Shown: positions 17,945 through 55,718, numbered from the stretch's first letter. The stretch: DNA of 64,000 bases from Acidimicrobiales bacterium (GCA_049523315.1 JBEKMZ010000001.1:15147-79146), one strand, 5' to 3'. The notes: a model not told the origin generated them from the sequence alone. Numbers and translations are program-made.

Positions 17945-19375
17945 ATGGCACCCGAGCAGTCAGAATCCCCGCAGGCACACTTCGAGGCCATCTTCAAGGC
18001 ATACGACATCAGGGGCATCGTTCCCGACGAGCTCGACGCCCGCATTGCCTATTGCGTCGGCGCGGCGTTCGCCAGCTTCGTGCTCGCGAGAGGCGCCGGC
18101 GAGGCGAGGGTCGTCCTCGCACGCGACATCCGGCACTCGGGTGTCGAGCTGAGCCGGGCCTTCAGCGCAGGCGTGCTGTCCGAAGGCCTCGGCGTCGTCG
18201 ACGTCGGGCTGGCCTCGACCGACCTCCTCTACTTCGCCTCCGGGAAGCTGAACCTGGCCGGGGCGATGCTGACCGCCTCGCACAACCCGCCCGCGTACAA
18301 CGGCATCAAGCTCTGCCTGCCCGGTGCCAGCCCGATAGGGCGCGACTCGGGCCTTGGCGAGATCTGCCGCATCGCTGTCGGCGCCTACGCGAGCGCACCG
18401 GCGGACGGTGGTGTCAAGGACTTCGCGGACGACGGGCGCGTCGAGCATCGCGACCTGCTCGAGGAGTTCGCCACCCACGTGCGCTCGTTCGTTGAGCTCG
18501 AGAGCCTCCGGCCCTTGAAAGTGGTAGCCGACACGGCCAACGGCATGGGTGGCCTCGTCGCCCCAGCGGTCTTCGCGGGGCTGCCCTTCGAGCTCGAGAT
18601 CCTCTTCGGCGAGCTGGACGGTTCATTTCCCAATCATCCTGCGGACCCGATACAGGTGAAGAACCTGGCCGACCTCCGCGCTCGCATCCTCAGCAGCGGC
18701 GCGGACGTCGGGCTTGCTTTCGACGGCGACGCGGACCGCGTGTTCATCGTCGACGAGAAGGGCGAGCCCATGTCAGGCTCGCTGACGACCTCGATCGTCG
18801 CCGCGACCATGCTCGAGCGCCACCCCGGCTCGAAGATCCTCTACAATCTCATCTGCTCGCACGCCGTGCCCGAGATCGTCATCGAGCGGGGCGGTGTCCC
18901 TATACGGACGCGCGTGGGCCACTCGTTCATAAAGGCAGTGATGGCCGAGACCGGCGCCATCTTCGGGGGCGAGCACTCCGGGCATTACTACTTCCGGGAC
19001 AACTACCGGGCGGACTCTGGGATCATCGCCGCCCTCGTCGTGCTCGAAGCCTTGTCGAGGGCGGGGGTTCCCCTCTCAGAACTCAGGGTGCCCTTCGAGC
19101 GCTACTCGGACTCGGGCGAGATCAACACCGAGGTGCCAGAGCCGTCCACGGTGATCGGCGAGGTGGCCGCGCACTACCGGGCCGAGGGCGGACAGATCGA
19201 CGATCTCGACGGGATCACGGTGGACATGGGCGACTGGTGGTTTAACCTGCGGCCGTCCAACACCGAACCGCTGTTGAGGCTCAACCTTGAGGCGCGAGAT
19301 GCTGCCGAGCGAGACCTGTACCGCGACGAGGTGCTCGGGGTGATCCGGCGGCTCGCGCAGAGCACCGCGCGATGA
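17945..19375 (+). CDS. manB: Phosphomannomutase/phosphoglucomutase
   Basis: FKAYDIRG, TASHNP (phosphoserine), FDGDADR (metal), GGEHSGHYYF and LRPSNTEPLLRLNLE. Confidence 0.93.
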   Translation: MAPEQSESPQAHFEAIFKAYDIRGIVPDELDARIAYCVGAAFASFVLARGAGEARVVLARDIRHSGVELSRAFSAGVLSEGLGVVDVGLASTDLLYFASGKLNLAGAMLTASHNPPAYNGIKLCLPGASPIGRDSGLGEICRIAVGAYASAPADGGVKDFADDGRVEHRDLLEEFATHVRSFVELESLRPLKVVADTANGMGGLVAPAVFAGLPFELEILFGELDGSFPNHPADPIQVKNLADLRARILSSGADVGLAFDGDADRVFIVDEKGEPMSGSLTTSIVAATMLERHPGSKILYNLICSHAVPEIVIERGGVPIRTRVGHSFIKAVMAETGAIFGGEHSGHYYFRDNYRADSGIIAALVVLEALSRAGVPLSELRVPFERYSDSGEINTEVPEPSTVIGEVAAHYRAEGGQIDDLDGITVDMGDWWFNLRPSNTEPLLRLNLEARDAAERDLYRDEVLGVIRRLAQSTAR

Positions 19376-19407: not shown

Positions 19408-19674
19408 ATGGCGCTCGACCCGCAGCTTTTGGCGCTGCTCGCATGCCCTGAGGACAAAGGGCCGCTGCTCTATTTCGCCGACGAGGAGACGTTGTACAAT
19501 CCCCGGCTCCAGCGGCGCTATCGCGTGGTCGACGGCATTCCGGTAATGCTCGTCGACGAAGCCGAGACCGTCTCGGAGGAGGAGCACGAGCGGCTCTGCG
19601 CGAAGGCCGCGGCCGAGGGGGTCACGGCGAACTTCGACTTCGGCGAAGGCGTAGGGGGCGCCCCCTCGAGGTGA
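19408..19674 (+). CDS. Trm112 family protein
   Basis: LDPQLLALLACPEDKGPL ... YRVVDGIPVMLVDEA. Confidence 0.88.
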   Translation: MALDPQLLALLACPEDKGPLLYFADEETLYNPRLQRRYRVVDGIPVMLVDEAETVSEEEHERLCAKAAAEGVTANFDFGEGVGGAPSR

Positions 19675-20726
19675 GCTGGGTCTCGCCCGACAGCCAGGAC
19701 ATGCTCGGGGCGAGCGCGGCCCTGGGTGAGCAACTCGAGCTGTCGGCGTCACAAGCAGCCGAAGTTCCCGGTCTTCCATCGACGGAGGGTCTCGACGCGA
19801 TCGTCGTCCTCGGGATGGGCGGAAGCGGCGTGGCAGGCGAGATCCTGCAGGCCATCGGCAAGGACCGCCTTAGCCTGCCGGTCGTCCTGTCAGGCGACTA
19901 CGCGCCGCCCGCGTTCGTCGGTCCGAGCACTCTCGTGTTCGCGGTCTCGTTCTCCGGCCAGACCGAAGAGACCCTCGAGGCCACCGCGACCGCCATCGGC
20001 CGCGGAGCCAGGCTGATCGCGGTCACTGGTGGCGGGCAGCTCGCCGAGATGGCGGCCGCGGCCGGAGCGCCCGTATTCAAGACCCTGCCGGGGATCCCGC
20101 AGCCGCGCGCCGGCGTGGCCACCACGACGACGCCCCTTCTCGTCGCCTTGGAGCGGCTCGGGCTGCTCCCGGGGATGACCGAGGAGATCGGCGATGCCGT
20201 CGAACAGCTGAAGAGGCGCCGAGAGGCGCTCGTGGACGGTGCCGGCGTGGCCCTCGAGGTGGCGCAGCGGCTCGATCGCACGATCCCGCTCCTGCAGGGC
20301 GCGAGCGGGATCGGCGCTGTCGCCGCGCGCCGCTGGAAGACCCAGGTGAACGAGAACGCGAAGGCCCCGGCCTTCTATGCATCCCAGCCGGAGTGGTGCC
20401 ACAACGAGATCTGCGGGTTCGGCCAGGGCGGTGACGTGACCCGCCAGGTGACCACGATCGTCATGCTCCGGAGCGACTTTGAGCACCCGCAGATCGAGCG
20501 GCGCTTCAGCCTTGTCGATGAGTTCGTGGGCGAAGCGGTGGCTTCGGTGATTGCGGTTCGCGCCGAGGGACGGGGTCAGCTCGCGCAGCTGTTCGACCTC
20601 ATTACCATCGGCGACTTCGTGAGCCTGCACCTCGCAACACGCGAGGGCATCGACCCGGGCCCGGTCCCGGTGCTCGTCGAGGTGAAGCGCTTCCTCCAAT
20701 CCGCGAGGCAACAGGCGCCGCGTTAG
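19671..20726 (+). CDS. Bifunctional phosphoglucose/phosphomannose isomerase (SIS domain)
   Basis: GMGGSG, SFSGQTEET, QPRA, RRWKTQVNENAK, PEWCHNEI and IDPGPVP. Confidence 0.9.
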   Translation: MSWVSPDSQDMLGASAALGEQLELSASQAAEVPGLPSTEGLDAIVVLGMGGSGVAGEILQAIGKDRLSLPVVLSGDYAPPAFVGPSTLVFAVSFSGQTEETLEATATAIGRGARLIAVTGGGQLAEMAAAAGAPVFKTLPGIPQPRAGVATTTTPLLVALERLGLLPGMTEEIGDAVEQLKRRREALVDGAGVALEVAQRLDRTIPLLQGASGIGAVAARRWKTQVNENAKAPAFYASQPEWCHNEICGFGQGGDVTRQVTTIVMLRSDFEHPQIERRFSLVDEFVGEAVASVIAVRAEGRGQLAQLFDLITIGDFVSLHLATREGIDPGPVPVLVEVKRFLQSARQQAPR

Positions 20727-20735
20727 CGCCATTTG

Positions 20736-22022
20736 ATGAGCAGCCGACCGGTCGACAGAGATATCACCGACCTGGGCCTTGCGAGCCTCGGCCGCCAGAG
20801 GATCGCCTGGGCAGACGCGGAGATGCCCGTGCTCGCCTCGATCCGTGAGCGGTTCGAGGCCGAACGCCCTCTCGACGGGCTCGTCGTGGGCGTGTGCCTG
20901 CACGTGACGACCGAGACGGCCAACTTCTTGAAGACTCTGAAAGCCGGCGGGGCAATAGTGCTGGCATGTGCCTCCAACCCGCTTTCGACCCAGGACGACG
21001 TGGCCGCCTCCCTTGTAGCGGACGAGGGCATCGCCACCTTCGCGGTCAAAGGCGAGAGCCACGAGCGCTACTACCGCCACATCGATGCCGTGCTCGACGG
21101 CCACCCGCAGCTGACCATGGACGACGGGTGTGATCTCGTGTCACGCCTCCACCAGTCCCGCCCGCACCAGCTCCCCGAGCTGATCGGTGGCACCGAGGAC
21201 ACGCGCACCGGCGTGATCCGCCTCCGGGCGATGGAGGCGGCCGGGGTGCTCCGCTACCCGATCGTCGCCGTCGACGACGCCGAGACGAAGCATCTTTTCG
21301 ACAACCGGCACGGCACGGGGCAGTCCACGATCGACGGCATCGTCCGTGCGACGAACATCCTCCTCGCCGGGAAGCGCTTCGTCGTCGCCGGCTACGGCTA
21401 CTGCGGCAAGGGAGTCGCTGCGCGTGCTAGGGGGATGGGGGCGCTCGTGACCGTCACCGAGATCGACGCGCTTCGTGCCCTTGAGGCCGTCACCGACGGT
21501 TTCGAGGTAGCGCCCATGGCGGAGGCCGCCCGCAAGGGCGAGGTCTTCGTGACGGCCACTGGCAACAGCCAGGTGCTCCGGGCCGAGCACTTCGCCGAGA
21601 TGCGTGACGGCGCCATTCTGGCCAACGCCGGTCACTTCGACGTCGAGGTCGACCTCGTGGCACTCGCCCGCATGGCCGGCGACAGGCGGCGGATCGTGCG
21701 CCCGATGGTCGAGGAGTTCACCCTCGATTCCACCGACGGGTCGGCCCGGCGGTTGCTGCTCCTCGCCGAGGGCCGTCTCGTGAACTTGAGCGCGGCCGAG
21801 GGCCACCCGGCGGCGGTCATGGACTTGTCCTTCGCCAACCAGGCGCTCGCGGCCGAGTGGTTGGCGACCAAGCGCGGCCAGCTAGACAATCGCGTGCACG
21901 CGGTACCGGGCGAGATGGACGCCAAGATCGCGGAGCTCAAGCTCGAGACGATGGGGATCGACATCGATGCTCCCACGAGTTCGCAGCTGGCCTACCTGGC
22001 CTCCTGGACCAGGGGCACCTGA
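20736..22022 (+). CDS. ahcY: Adenosylhomocysteinase
   Basis: EMPVL, CLHVTTET, SNPLSTQDD, TKHLFDNRHGTGQS, GYGYCGKG, NAGHFDVE and EGRLVNL..AEGHP..VMDLSFANQ. Some motif substitutions are described under findings. Confidence 0.92.
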   Translation: MSSRPVDRDITDLGLASLGRQRIAWADAEMPVLASIRERFEAERPLDGLVVGVCLHVTTETANFLKTLKAGGAIVLACASNPLSTQDDVAASLVADEGIATFAVKGESHERYYRHIDAVLDGHPQLTMDDGCDLVSRLHQSRPHQLPELIGGTEDTRTGVIRLRAMEAAGVLRYPIVAVDDAETKHLFDNRHGTGQSTIDGIVRATNILLAGKRFVVAGYGYCGKGVAARARGMGALVTVTEIDALRALEAVTDGFEVAPMAEAARKGEVFVTATGNSQVLRAEHFAEMRDGAILANAGHFDVEVDLVALARMAGDRRRIVRPMVEEFTLDSTDGSARRLLLLAEGRLVNLSAAEGHPAAVMDLSFANQALAAEWLATKRGQLDNRVHAVPGEMDAKIAELKLETMGIDIDAPTSSQLAYLASWTRGT

Positions 22023-22049
22023 CACGCGCTCTCGGCCGGGGCATGGGCC

Positions 22050-22055
22050 TAGACT
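22050..22055 (+). promoter_or_regulatory. Putative -10 box for the raiA-motif RNA / hpf transcript
   Basis: TAGACT (TANNNT) about 10 nt upstream of the RNA 5' stem; no clear -35. Confidence 0.45.
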
Positions 22056-22065
22056 GCCGTGCGAT

Positions 22066-22327
22066 GGGCAGCGCGGGTCTGTGGTTGCAAGTCGATGCCA
22101 GTCGCAGGCGAAACGACCCACGTAAGGCGACTCGTGGTCGCTGAGCATGGTGCGGTTTAGAAGTAAGTCCTGCCCTGCGCGGCACCGGTTGGCGGTGCCG
22201 GCGGGAGAAGGGACCAACCGTGAGCTCGGGTGTGGCAGGGGTGGGCGAGGACGCCCGCCCGCACCAGGCACGGGACACCCTCAGCAGGCGAGTGTGGGGT
22301 CAAAGACCAGGTCAGCCGCGTGTGCCC
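22066..22327 (+). ncRNA. raiA motif structured ncRNA
   Basis: Conserved blocks match the raiA-motif consensus as I recall it: GGTCTGTGGTTGCAAGTCGATGCCAGTCGCAGGCGAAACGACCCACGTAAG, GAGCATGGTGCGGTTTAGAAGTAAGTCCTGCC and CAGCAGGCGAGTGTGGGGTCAAAGACCAGGTCA. The closing stem pairs 22066-22076 with 22316-22327, and the element lies directly upstream of an raiA/hpf gene. Confidence 0.9.
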
Positions 22328-22372
22328 GTCATCGGTTGCGACCGAGTGCCTGACCATGAAGGAGACGCTTCC

Positions 22373-22726
22373 ATGGAGATCACGGTGCAAGCCCGCCACT
22401 TGGAGATCCCCGACCAGCTTCGCGAGGCCGCCGTGGCAAAGGCGAAGCACCTCGAGCGGTTCCTGGAAGGGTCACAGCTGGCACAGGTGATCTTCTCGCG
22501 GGATCATGCGGCGCGAGACGACGGCCACGTGACCTGCGAGGTCCTCGTTGTCGCCCGGGGCCGTTCCGTCCGCGTCCGGGCGAAGGCGCACCTCGCGAAG
22601 GATGCCCTTGAGGCCGCGATGAGCAAGGAGGCCTTGCGACTTACGCGCATGCAGGACCGGCTCGTGAACCGCTCGCGGCCCCGCCACGGGGTGCCGGCAC
22701 AAAGACCGACGGAGCTATTGGACTGA
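22373..22726 (+). CDS. hpf: Ribosome-associated translation inhibitor RaiA / short hibernation promoting factor
   Basis: MEITVQARHLEIPDQLREAAVAKAKHLERF ... TCEVLV ... DALEAAMSK: S30AE fold pattern with no long C-terminal domain. AAGGAGA ribosome-binding site at 22359-22365. Confidence 0.85.
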   Translation: MEITVQARHLEIPDQLREAAVAKAKHLERFLEGSQLAQVIFSRDHAARDDGHVTCEVLVVARGRSVRVRAKAHLAKDALEAAMSKEALRLTRMQDRLVNRSRPRHGVPAQRPTELLD

Positions 22727-23697
22727 GCGCCTCCCAGAGCCTGAGCCCGGGTCCCGCCCTGCCCCGGGTCGTCATCGTGGGCGCGACCGGGACGGGCAAG
22801 ACTGCGCTCGCCATGGAGATAGCTCGGTCGGCGCCGGGCCGCTACGAGCTCGTGTCGGTTGACGCCATGGCCGTCTACCGCTTCTTGGACCTCGGGACGG
22901 CGAAACCGACCGAGGCCGAGCGCGCCGAGGTGCCCTGGCACCTCATCGACATCGTCGGTCCCTCCGAGCAGTTCTCGGTCGCGGCCTTCCAAGCTGCCGC
23001 GCGCAGGGCCATCGGCGGCATCGAGTCCCGCAACCACACACCGATCCTCGTCGGGGGCACCGGCTTGTACCACCGGGCCGTCCTCGACTCACTGGAGATC
23101 CCGGCCCGTTTCCCCGAGGTGGCGGCCGGCCTGGAGGAACAGGCCGAGCGGTCGGGCGGGCTGGCCGAGCTCTTCCAGCGGCTCTCGGAGCTGGACCCAG
23201 TCGCGGCACAGAGAGTCGAGCCGGGCAACAGGCGCCGGATCGTGCGTGCGCTGGAGGTGACGCTCGGCACGGGCCGTCCCTTCTCCTCTTTCGGCCCGGG
23301 CCTGCTCAACTACCCGCCGAGTGGGGCGAGCATGATCGGCCTCGAGCTTGAGCGCTCAGAGCTTGACCGCCGGCTCGCCGACCGGTTCGACGACCAGCTC
23401 GCAAGAGGGCTCTTAGAGGAGGTCCGCCAACTCGTGGGGCGCCCCGGCGGGCTCTCGCGCACGGCGCGACAGGCGATTGGCTACAGGGAGCTGCTCTCAC
23501 ACCTCGAGGGTGGCGTGGCACTCCAGGCGGCACGCTCAGAGGCGTTGCGGCGGCTTCGCGCCTTGGCCCGCCGCCAGGAGGCCTGGTTCAAGCGCGACCC
23601 TCGCGTGGTCTGGTTATGGGCGGACCGGAGCGATCTCATCGAGGCGGTCCGCGCGGTTGCGGGCGACACCGGAGTGATCGGAGCCGTGCGACACTGA
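22723..23697 (+). CDS. miaA: tRNA dimethylallyltransferase (start uncertain: CTG 22723/22741/22759, or GTG 22777)
   Basis: VVIVGATGTGKT P-loop, SVDAMAVYR..DLGTAKP, VGGTGLY, NRRRIVRALEV, QAIGYREL and ARRQEAWF. Confidence 0.92.
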   Translation: MSASQSLSPGPALPRVVIVGATGTGKTALAMEIARSAPGRYELVSVDAMAVYRFLDLGTAKPTEAERAEVPWHLIDIVGPSEQFSVAAFQAAARRAIGGIESRNHTPILVGGTGLYHRAVLDSLEIPARFPEVAAGLEEQAERSGGLAELFQRLSELDPVAAQRVEPGNRRRIVRALEVTLGTGRPFSSFGPGLLNYPPSGASMIGLELERSELDRRLADRFDDQLARGLLEEVRQLVGRPGGLSRTARQAIGYRELLSHLEGGVALQAARSEALRRLRALARRQEAWFKRDPRVVWLWADRSDLIEAVRAVAGDTGVIGAVRH

Positions 23698-55696: not shown

Positions 55697-55718
55697 GGCC
55701 ATACAGTAGGCGGCCATG
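55694..55718. promoter_or_regulatory. Bidirectional leaderless promoter shared by ileS and DUF167
   Basis: TACAGT (+, 55702-07) lies 8 nt before ATG 55716; TACTGT (-, 55708-03) lies 6 nt before ATG 55696. Flanked by inverted CATGGCC/GGCCATG. Confidence 0.65.

What the first reader, a model, noticed from the sequence alone, without database searches (positions are those of the whole stretch)
22066..22327. raiA-motif RNA: a large, highly structured ncRNA of unknown function ahead of the ribosome hibernation gene
Seen: AT-richer conserved blocks inside GC-rich DNA and multiple helices: closing stem 22066-76/22316-27, GCGAC/GTCGC 22127-41, CCTGC 22169-73 with GCAGG 22284-88, and GGTC-AAA-GACC 22298-308. 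A -10 box lies upstream, and no U-tract terminator is visible before the hpf ribosome-binding site 30 nt downstream. Known: raiA-motif RNAs occur in Bacillota and Actinomycetota, often upstream of raiA, form a compact pseudoknotted fold, and have no defined biochemical function. The ORF track misses it. Here it follows ahcY rather than the comF-type neighbour I recall as common. Inference: it is co-transcribed with hpf-miaA-dapF-hflX, linking it to ribosome dormancy and rescue.
Basis: partly seen in the sequence, partly recalled or inferred. Interest (0 to 1): 0.8.

Follow-up and report, generated by a model that had tools for sequence, protein, structure and literature searches.

The report
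Ordinary raiA (ModT) RNA before hpf
The flagged stretch is a full-length copy of the known raiA/ModT structured RNA, whose function is still unsolved, in an uncultured Acidimicrobiales bacterium; it is an ordinary family member, and the only less usual point is that it appears to be made on one transcript with the ribosome-hibernation gene hpf.

Summary
Confirmed. Rfam's raiA model (RF03072) matches window 22068-22323 (+) over its full length at 142.4 bits (cut-off 101.3, E 3e-35). It is the only Rfam hit in the window and the only copy in the genome.

Comparison with 28 relatives from the same order extends the closing stem, so the RNA spans about 22063-22330 (268 nt). The fold is strongly supported by covariation. 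A -10 box (TAGACT, 22050-55) holds the same position in all 28 relatives, which argues for a dedicated promoter.

No terminator and no second promoter lie in the 42 nt before hpf (short form, 117 aa). hpf is therefore probably transcribed by read-through, followed by miaA-dapF-hflX. The usual comFC neighbour is replaced by pgi-ahcY.

The organism is an Acidimicrobiales MAG, a class already reported to carry raiA RNAs, so nothing here is new in kind.

One lead came up. Within this order the RNA begins with an AUG wherever hpf follows directly (10 of 11 genera, plus one GUG) and lacks it in all 7 genera where hpf is absent. The rule does not hold elsewhere in the phylum.

The parts
20733..22022 (+). 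ahcY (adenosylhomocysteinase), the upstream neighbour on the same strand. Its stop codon lies 41 nt before the RNA.
   Evidence: TIGR00936 575 bits; Pfam AdoHcyase and AdoHcyase_NAD. Synteny is conserved in the genus.
22050..22055 (+). -10 promoter element TAGACT (TAnnnT) of the RNA gene. The predicted start of transcription is about 22062-22064.
   Evidence: T, A and the final T are invariant and in register in 28 of 28 relatives, within otherwise unconserved sequence. The simple sigma-70 scan finds nothing because no -35 hexamer is present.
22063..22330 (+). raiA-motif (ModT) RNA, about 268 nt. The Rfam match covers 22068-22323; the closing stem P1a extends it on both sides.
   Evidence: RF03072 142.4 bits, E 3.3e-35, full model. 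P1a of 13-15 bp is seen in every relative, with heavy covariation.
22064..22066 (+). AUG at the 5' base of P1, 8 nt after the -10 box (the geometry of a leaderless start). It opens a 26-codon frame that ends at TGA 22142-44.
   Evidence: It is present in 10 of 11 Acidimicrobiales genera where hpf follows directly (GUG in the eleventh) and absent in all 7 genera without hpf. The peptide and frame are not conserved. The rule is not kept outside the order.
22077..22086 (+). GU bulge (22077-78), then the 5' strands of P1b (CUG) and P1c (UGGUU). Their partners are CAG 22313-15 and GACCA 22305-09, with the GGU bulge at 22310-12.
   Evidence: cmscan alignment. All positions are invariant in 29 sequences. 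These are the family's signature bulges as described in PMC12968392.
22087..22122 (+). J1 loop GCAA (no P2 insert). P3a is UCG/CGA and P3b is GCC/GGC. The P3b loop AGUCGCA (22100-06) forms PK1 with UGCGGUU (22151-57). Then comes the P4 5' strand CCCACG, pairing with UGUGGG 22293-98.
   Evidence: The PK1 changes seen are G-U to G-C, U-G to C-G, and one A-U to G-C, all compatible with pairing. Nomenclature follows PMC12968392.
22126..22142 (+).
   Evidence: G-C changes to A-U on both sides in 9 of 29 sequences.
22157..22166 (+). Conserved single-stranded linker UUAGAAGUAA. The family consensus is UUAGAcGUAA.
   Evidence: Described as the conserved, solvent-exposed linker in PMC12968392.
22169..22288 (+). 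Peripheral domain. It comprises helix CCUGC/GCAGG (22169-73 / 22284-88), a long hairpin at 22174-22205 (13 bp), and a long arm at 22209-22281 that holds a 48-nt insertion relative to the model.
   Evidence: 10 of 13 pairs in the hairpin and 8 of 9 pairs in the proximal arm show changes on both sides.
22332..22345 (+). Small hairpin UCGGU-UGCG-ACCGA directly after P1, with no U-tract. It is conserved only in a sub-clade of the genus.
   Evidence: L022 has UCAGU...ACUGA, a compensatory change. It is not a canonical terminator.
22359..22726 (+). hpf: Shine-Dalgarno AAGGAG at 22359-64 and coding sequence 22373-22726. This is a short 117-aa HPF/YfiA-type ribosome hibernation factor.
   Evidence: Pfam Ribosomal_S30AE 39.1 bits (cut-off 23.7). 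TIGR00741 scores 37.9 bits, below its cut-off of 40.9. It is the only S30AE gene in the genome.
22723..23697 (+). miaA (tRNA isopentenyltransferase). It probably starts at a CUG that overlaps the hpf stop codon (CUGA); the first canonical start, GTG 22777, lies inside the first beta-strand. dapF and hflX follow.
   Evidence: Pfam IPPT 240.8 bits.

Best explanation
Window 22063-22330 (+) encodes a raiA-motif RNA (also called ModT), a compact pseudoknotted non-coding RNA of about 268 nt. It belongs to the subtype without P2 and has long peripheral arms.

Shown:
- Family membership.
- The fold, by covariation.
- Single copy in the genome.
- A -10 box (TAGACT) kept in a fixed position directly upstream, 7-8 nt before the first base of the closing stem.
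- No terminator and no second promoter before hpf.

Inferred:
- RNA polymerase starts at the base of P1 and transcribes the RNA.
- At least part of the time it reads on into hpf, and through a stop-start overlap into miaA-dapF-hflX. In this lineage hpf would then depend on the RNA gene's promoter.
- The stable, closed RNA body either stays as the 5' part of that mRNA or is released by processing.

By analogy with Clostridium acetobutylicum and Clostridioides difficile, where deletion phenotypes are rescued in trans (PMC10861870, PMC11706538), its main job is most likely as an abundant trans-acting structured RNA acting around the transition to stationary phase. It may act as a ribonucleoprotein with KhpA/KhpB, both of which are encoded in this genome. 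The biochemical activity itself is unknown for the whole family.
For: - Identity: RF03072 142.4 bits, full length.
- Copy number: one copy per genome.
- Distribution: present in 29 of 41 related genomes (19 of the 20 other genomes of the genus; the 20th genome's contig breaks inside the locus), 20 of 301 genomes of the class and 144 of 401 of the phylum.
- Fold: 97.5% of cells paired, 27 pairs with double changes, 0 of 500 shuffles reaching the observed values, slid controls at 36-49%. P1a is 13-15 bp in all relatives.
- Promoter: TAnnnT is invariant in position in 28 of 28 relatives.
- Read-through: no terminator; a 42-nt spacer without any TAnnnT; the spacing is kept through the genus. Where secA follows the RNA instead, a conserved GGTAGGGT -10 is visible in the gap. 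The hpf and miaA frames overlap in a conserved CTGA.
- Independence from hpf: seven genera of the order keep the RNA and its -10 box although hpf is not downstream.
- Possible protein partners: a KH_KhpA-B match of 82 bits and a KH plus R3H (KhpB/Jag-type) frame in the genome. In vitro binding of KhpA-KhpB to four raiA RNAs is reported in PMC12968392.
Against: - The start site, the 3' end, read-through and abundance are therefore all predictions.
- In Clostridia the RNA is an independent transcript, with its own terminator in several species (PMC11706538). The organism here is non-sporulating, and the Clostridial phenotypes (sporulation, aggregation) need not transfer.
- KhpA/KhpB bind many RNAs with only micromolar affinity. 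An earlier C. difficile study did not find KhpB bound to ModT.
- Read-through from the upstream pgi-ahcY genes cannot be excluded, because no terminator follows ahcY either.
Confidence: 0.7

Rival explanations
1. The RNA is purely a cis-acting leader (riboswitch-like or protein-binding) that controls hpf and has no function of its own. Rfam labels the family 'Cis-reg; riboswitch'.
For: The linkage is tight and conserved, with no terminator and no separate hpf promoter. Similar spacing of 20-100 nt between the RNA and hpf is common in other high-GC Actinomycetota. Rfam lists the type as cis-regulatory.
Against: Seven genera of the same order keep the RNA and its promoter without hpf downstream; there it is followed by secA with its own promoter, by miaA, or by terminator-like hairpins. 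No alternative-pairing expression platform is significant: the spacer fold has z = +0.5. Published knock-outs are rescued in trans, and no ligand was found (PMC10861870, PMC11706538, PMC5737381).
Confidence: 0.12
2. The 5'-terminal AUG makes the transcript a leaderless ribosome-binding site. Capture of the AUG by 70S ribosomes before P1 closes, or its burial once P1 has formed, would couple ribosome availability to expression of the hibernation factor encoded immediately downstream.
For: Within Acidimicrobiales, AUG (once GUG) sits 5-8 nt after the -10 box in all 11 genera with hpf directly downstream and in none of the 7 genera without it. Contrasts occur inside three families: f1, f19 and f23. 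The AUG is kept while the rest of P1a and its 3' partner vary. A 125-aa ORF at 55716 in the same window has the same TAnnnT-N8-ATG geometry and no Shine-Dalgarno sequence. A similar start codon was noted by an earlier agent in Nocardioides.
Against: Outside the order, RNA-hpf linkage is just as tight but the AUG is mostly missing; for example only 1 of 14 loci in family f75 has it. The frame and the peptide are not conserved, and the AUG-to-hpf distance is not kept modulo 3. The AUG is base-paired in P1. The count is small and not corrected for phylogeny. The start site is only predicted.
Confidence: 0.12
3. There is no RNA gene: the helices are what G+C-rich DNA gives by chance, or the stretch is coding (the hpf frame is open back to 22220, and minus-strand ORFs overlap it).
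For: Mechanical ORFs overlap the region: 22220-22726 on the + strand, and 21882-22271 and 22157-22450 on the - strand. The DNA is 68% G+C.
Against: E 3e-35 to a curated covariance model. There are 27 compensatory pairs and 0 of 500 shuffles reach the observed values. The HPF family profile begins at the ATG at 22373, which has a Shine-Dalgarno sequence. Insertions and deletions among relatives are not multiples of three.
Confidence: 0.01

Closest known systems
raiA motif RNA / ModT of Clostridium acetobutylicum and Clostridioides difficile (Rfam RF03072; PMC5737381, PMC10861870, PMC11706538)
   Same: Same family by covariance model. Same core: P1 with GU and GGU bulges, P3a/P3b, P4, PK1 and the UUAGAnGUAA linker. 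Same subtype without P2 and with the multi-stem peripheral domain. Single copy per genome, a housekeeping-type promoter directly upstream, and a location ahead of the hibernation-factor gene.
   Different: About 268 nt against 204-215 nt, because of a 13-bp hairpin and a 48-nt insertion in the last arm. The J1 loop is GCAA instead of GAAA. No terminator follows. The upstream neighbour is ahcY, not comFC. The host is a non-sporulating Acidimicrobiales MAG, so the known phenotypes (sporulation, aggregation, c-di-GMP) may not apply.
Ns-raiA, the raiA RNA of Nocardioides sp. Iso805N (cryo-EM structure, PMC12968392)
   Same: Actinomycetota, G+C-rich, with a long hairpin of about 14 bp in the peripheral domain and the same conserved core and P1 geometry.
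   Different: Ns-raiA has the extra stem P2 inserted in J1. The window RNA has only GCAA there.
raiA RNA loci of other high-GC Actinomycetota with hpf 20-100 nt downstream
   Same: Same promoter-RNA-hpf arrangement, with no visible terminator or second promoter.
   Different: Those loci mostly lack the 5' AUG, usually have long HPF, and many carry P2. The neighbours there are typically comFC-like genes upstream, according to the literature; I did not check this myself.

Membership tests
raiA motif RNA (Rfam RF03072) | Covariance-model score at or above the curated gathering score, over the full model | tested here: met
   142.4 bits against 101.3, model positions 1-209 of 209, E 3.3e-35. The same result came from the whole-genome search.
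raiA motif RNA (Rfam RF03072) | Closing stem P1 in three segments, separated by a GU bulge and a GGU bulge (PMC12968392) | tested here: met
   The GU bulge is at 22077-78 and the GGU bulge at 22310-12. P1b is CUG/CAG and P1c is UGGUU/GACCA, all invariant in 29 sequences. P1a covaries.
raiA motif RNA (Rfam RF03072) | Core: P3a-P3b hairpin whose loop forms pseudoknot PK1, plus P4 and the conserved UUAGAcGUAA linker | tested here: met
   All pairs can be written on the sequence. PK1 is 99.5% paired, with four varying pairs that all stay paired. P3 and P4 never vary, so covariation says nothing about them. The linker UUAGAAGUAA is at 22157-66.
raiA motif RNA (Rfam RF03072) | Second pseudoknot PK2 and the GAA(A) tetraloop-like J1 contact | tested here: inconclusive
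   J1 reads GCAA in the window and in most of the 28 relatives; it reads GAAA in 4 and GCGA in 1. I could not assign the PK2 pairs with confidence from the text of PMC12968392, and the candidate positions are invariant.
raiA motif RNA (Rfam RF03072) | Single locus per genome | tested here: met
   One match in G000, which is 93% complete. Relatives have one each. The second partial hit in G018 is the same locus split at a contig end.
raiA motif RNA (Rfam RF03072) | Taxonomic range Bacillota/Actinomycetota, including Acidimicrobiia (PMC10861870) | tested here: met
   Close relatives are titled Acidimicrobiales/Acidimicrobiaceae MAGs. The paper names Acidimicrobiia.
raiA motif RNA (Rfam RF03072) | Typical gene neighbourhood: downstream of comFC (74%) and upstream of raiA/hpf (66%) | tested here: inconclusive
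   The hpf side is met. The comFC side is not met: the upstream gene is ahcY, and no comF match in the genome reaches the cut-off. Neighbourhood is a tendency of the family, not a requirement.
raiA motif RNA (Rfam RF03072) | Expressed as an abundant, stable RNA that acts in trans | not testable with these tools
Riboswitch / cis-regulatory leader of hpf | An expression platform (terminator/antiterminator or Shine-Dalgarno-sequestering alternative pairing) coupled to the aptamer, and strict association with the regulated gene | tested here: not met
   No terminator. The spacer fold is not better than shuffles, z = +0.5. The RNA is retained without hpf in 7 genera of the order.

The most novel reading that the evidence does not exclude
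In Acidimicrobiales the raiA RNA would not be only a free-standing RNA gene. It would be the obligatory 5' body of the hpf(-miaA-dapF-hflX) transcript and would begin with a leaderless-type AUG buried in its closing stem. Competition between 70S ribosomes capturing that AUG and closure of P1 could let the cell read ribosome availability and set production of the hibernation factor. That would give the enigmatic raiA family a concrete cis function in at least one lineage, tied to the ribosome.
Probability: 0.12. Interest if true: 0.65.

Novelty: already known. Interest (0 to 1): 0.3.

Why it matters
raiA/ModT is one of the most widespread and abundant bacterial structured RNAs whose biochemical function is still unknown, so each well-annotated instance adds to the comparative data.

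This copy does not change the picture. It is a textbook family member in a class already known to carry the RNA, and the host is uncultured.

The session adds three things:
- A lineage-level map showing that in Acidimicrobiales, and in many other high-GC Actinomycetota, the RNA and hpf look like one transcription unit driven by the RNA's promoter. This sits uneasily with the 'independent gene' picture from Clostridia.
- A different conserved neighbourhood, pgi-ahcY-RNA-hpf-miaA-dapF-hflX, which joins the RNA to three ribosome- or tRNA-related genes.
- A testable correlation between a 5' AUG and the presence of hpf.

If the read-through or AUG ideas hold, they would point experiments on this family towards the ribosome.

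Tried and rejected
- **De novo RNAalifold consensus.** It mis-pairs the 5' region (columns 10-20 with 32-42) because it cannot represent the pseudoknot. I replaced it with the Rfam- and cryo-EM-derived pairing, which I tested.
Rejected. Both arms are used elsewhere in the family fold.
- **Sigma-70 consensus scan.** It found no promoter because no -35 hexamer is present. The -10 box came out only through alignment of relatives.
- **Peptide from the 5' AUG, or an N-terminal extension of HPF.** Rejected. The ORFs are 20-32 codons long, use two different frames across families, and the AUG-to-hpf distance is 0, 1 or 2 modulo 3.
- **5' AUG as a general rule wherever hpf is tightly linked.** Rejected at phylum level.
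- **Alternative helix GGUCAG 22310-15 / CUGACC 22350-55 as a switch.** It is seen in the fold of the spacer, but the region folds no better than shuffles (z = +0.5) and the motif is kept only within the genus.
- **Automatic P1-boundary calling.** duplexfold over-extended the stem in some loci, and my stricter anchor pattern failed on P2-bearing RNAs. For loci outside the order I relied on the printed upstream sequences.

Full report

Yes. A scan of the whole 64-kb window against Rfam 15 gives exactly one match above a gathering score. It is RF03072 (raiA) at 22068-22323 on the + strand: 142.4 bits against a cut-off of 101.3, E 3.3e-35, covering model positions 1-209 of 209. The same model finds this copy and no other in the 3.99-Mb assembly, which is 93% complete.

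- The closing stem.
- GCGAC/GTCGC at 22127-41.
- CCTGC 22169-73 with GCAGG 22284-88.

The fourth, GGTC-AAA-GACC at 22298-308, is only a local complementarity. In the model GACCA 22305-09 pairs with UGGUU 22082-86, and the G-run pairs with CCCACG 22117-22.

**2. Anatomy**

Nomenclature follows He et al. 2026 (PMC12968392). The elements, in order:
- P1a: 22063-76 with 22316-30, G22322 bulged.
- GU bulge: 22077-78.
- P1b: CUG/CAG.
- GGU bulge: 22310-12.
- P1c: UGGUU/GACCA.
- J1 loop: GCAA, with no P2 insert.
- P3a/P3b: 22092-22116.
- PK1: AGUCGCA 22100-06 with UGCGGUU 22151-57.
- P4: CCCACG/UGUGGG.
- Hairpin: 22126-42.
- Linker: UUAGAAGUAA, 22157-66.
- Helix: 22169-73 with 22284-88.
- A 13-bp hairpin: 22174-22205.
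- A long arm: 22209-22281, containing 48 nt that the model treats as an insertion.

The RNA therefore belongs to the subtype without P2 but with the multi-stem peripheral domain, like the C. acetobutylicum RNA, and has long arms like the Nocardioides RNA.

**3. Is it more than chance?**

I collected 28 homologues from the same order, aligned them and counted the named structure on the alignment:
- 97.5% of 1929 pair cells are standard pairs, against 36-49% when the 3' partners are slid by 1-3 columns.
- 27 of 67 pairs have changes on both sides.
- None of 500 shuffles reaches any of the five observed measures.

The core (P1b, P1c, P3, P4) is invariant, so covariation says nothing about it. The support comes from P1a, PK1 and the peripheral helices.

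Pairing the flanks shows that P1a is 13-15 bp in every relative and reaches 5 nt upstream and 7 nt downstream of the Rfam match. Its sequences differ completely between families. The single sequence folds at -135.9 kcal/mol, z = -3.3.

**4. Organism and distribution**

Close relatives of the downstream protein come from MAGs titled Acidimicrobiales or Acidimicrobiaceae, from peat and soil. Soares et al. 2024 already list Acidimicrobiia among the classes that carry the RNA.

| Sample | Genomes with the RNA |
|---|---|
| Other genomes of the genus | 18 of 20 (one miss is 74% complete, the other 83%); G018's hit is a locus split at a contig end |
| Relatives in the same order | 29 of 41 |
| Even sample of the class | 20 of 301 (9 of 147 genera) |
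| Sample of the phylum | 144 of 401 |

The window's score is typical for the family.

**5. Surroundings**

Gene order on the + strand:
- pgm (17945-19375)
- pgi-like (19671-20726)
- ahcY (20733-22022)
- the RNA
- hpf (22373-22726, 117 aa)
- miaA
- dapF
- hflX
- an aminotransferase

The order pgi-ahcY-RNA-hpf-miaA is kept across the genus. In other families of the order the RNA is still followed by hpf. There are exceptions: in two genera of the same family it is followed directly by miaA, and in family f19 by secA. No comF match in the genome passes its cut-off, so the family's commonest upstream neighbour is missing here.

**6. Transcription (inferred, not shown)**

A TAnnnT motif (window TAGACT, 22050-55) is invariant in position in 28 of 28 relatives, 5-8 nt upstream of the first base of P1, while the sequence around it is unconserved. 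This is the signature of a dedicated actinobacterial -10 box. It places the start of transcription at about 22062-64, the base of P1.

Downstream there is no intrinsic terminator. P1 ends at 22330, the hpf Shine-Dalgarno AAGGAG is at 22359-64 and the ATG at 22373. The 42-nt spacer contains no TAnnnT in the window or in the genus. In contrast, where secA follows the RNA, a conserved GGTAGGGT -10 is plainly visible in the gap.

hpf therefore most probably depends on read-through from the RNA's promoter, or from the genes upstream of it. The hpf stop codon overlaps a conserved CTGA, across which the miaA frame stays open, which ties miaA to hpf.

**7. Function**

Nothing in the sequence reveals the biochemical activity, which is unknown for the whole family. 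What is known comes from Clostridia (PMC10861870, PMC11706538, PMC12968392):
- The RNA is very abundant.
- It is made from a housekeeping promoter.
- Its deletion delays entry into stationary phase and impairs sporulation and aggregation.
- The defects are rescued in trans.
- KhpA-KhpB bind four different raiA RNAs at about 2 µM in vitro.

This genome encodes a KhpA-type KH protein (82 bits) and a KH plus R3H KhpB/Jag-type protein, so that partnership is possible here.

Seven genera of the order keep the RNA and its promoter without a downstream hpf. This argues that the RNA has a role of its own and is not merely an hpf leader.

**8. A lead that goes beyond the finding**

An earlier agent's note on Nocardioides said the RNA there starts with a start codon. 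I tested this here.

The window RNA begins GAUGGGC. The ATG at 22064 lies 8 nt after the -10 box. That is the same geometry as a 125-aa ORF without a Shine-Dalgarno sequence at 55716 in this window.

Within Acidimicrobiales:

| Context | Genera | 5' start codon |
|---|---|---|
| hpf directly downstream | 11 | AUG in 10, GUG in 1 |
| No hpf downstream | 7 | None has the AUG |

Contrasts occur inside three families. For example, the two hpf-less genera of the window's own family read ACG and CUG at that position. The AUG is kept while the rest of P1a and its pairing partner vary.

Against a functional reading:
- The ORF it opens is 20-32 codons long, in two different frames, and is never in a fixed frame with hpf.
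- The AUG is paired in P1.
- Outside the order, RNA-hpf linkage is equally tight but the AUG is mostly absent.
- The count is small and not corrected for phylogeny.

I rate a ribosome-sensing role at about 0.12.

**9. Verdict**

This is a genuine, full-length and ordinary member of a catalogued RNA family, in a class already reported to have it.

Novelty: already known. Interest is modest (0.3). It rests on the apparent single transcription unit with hpf, on the unusual neighbourhood, and on the AUG-hpf correlation as a testable lead.

Noticed in passing
window 22373-22726; L002, L007, L008, L054, L070: The HPF of this genus is a short form of 117 aa (S30AE domain only). It is the only S30AE gene found in the 93%-complete genome. 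Other families of the same order have 186-204-aa long HPFs behind the same RNA. A short HPF is unusual for Actinomycetota and cannot dimerise ribosomes the way long HPFs do.
   Followed up: partly
window 22723-22780; L004-L026: The hpf stop codon overlaps a conserved CTGA, and the miaA frame is open across it. The first beta-strand of MiaA (PRVVIVGATGTGKT) has no ATG, GTG or TTG upstream in most genomes of the genus; only L011 has an ATG. miaA therefore probably starts at a CUG overlapping the hpf stop, which would mean translational coupling with a rare start codon.
   Followed up: partly
L057-L061, L063-L067, L071 (family f19): In this family the raiA RNA is followed by secA, not hpf. A strongly conserved (C)GGTAGGGT -10 element sits in the gap. 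This looks like the comFC-RNA-hpf-secA arrangement of other Actinomycetota after loss of hpf.
   Followed up: partly
L068, L069 (family f23, genus g41): Here the RNA is followed by a long G+C-rich perfect hairpin without a U-tract, which looks like a terminator, and there is no hpf. This is a different 3' solution from the window.
   Followed up: no
window 22310-22315 and 22350-22355: GGUCAG (the GGU bulge plus the P1b 3' strand) is complementary to CUGACC just upstream of the hpf Shine-Dalgarno sequence. CCUGAY is kept within the genus only, and the local fold is not better than shuffles (z = +0.5).
   Followed up: partly
window 55702-55718: TACAGT, then 8 nt, then the ATG of a 125-aa ORF with no Shine-Dalgarno sequence. 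This is a candidate leaderless gene with the same -10-to-ATG spacing as the raiA RNA's 5' AUG.
   Followed up: partly
L018 and L030 (genome G018): The apparent second, partial raiA hit (45 bits) in one relative is the same locus broken at a contig end inside the RNA. It is not a second copy.
   Followed up: yes
G000:C17:10659-11508: The best comF-like matches in the genome are two adjacent weak phosphoribosyltransferase-type hits (21-26 bits, cut-off 233). A true comFC may be absent or highly diverged.
   Followed up: no
L101-L167 (other Actinomycetota): In many high-GC families hpf starts only 20-100 nt after the raiA RNA, with a TAnnnT -10 box directly before the RNA and none visible in the gap. 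The 'one transcript with hpf' layout therefore seems widespread in the phylum, in contrast to low-GC relatives where hpf lies 160-700 nt away.
   Followed up: partly
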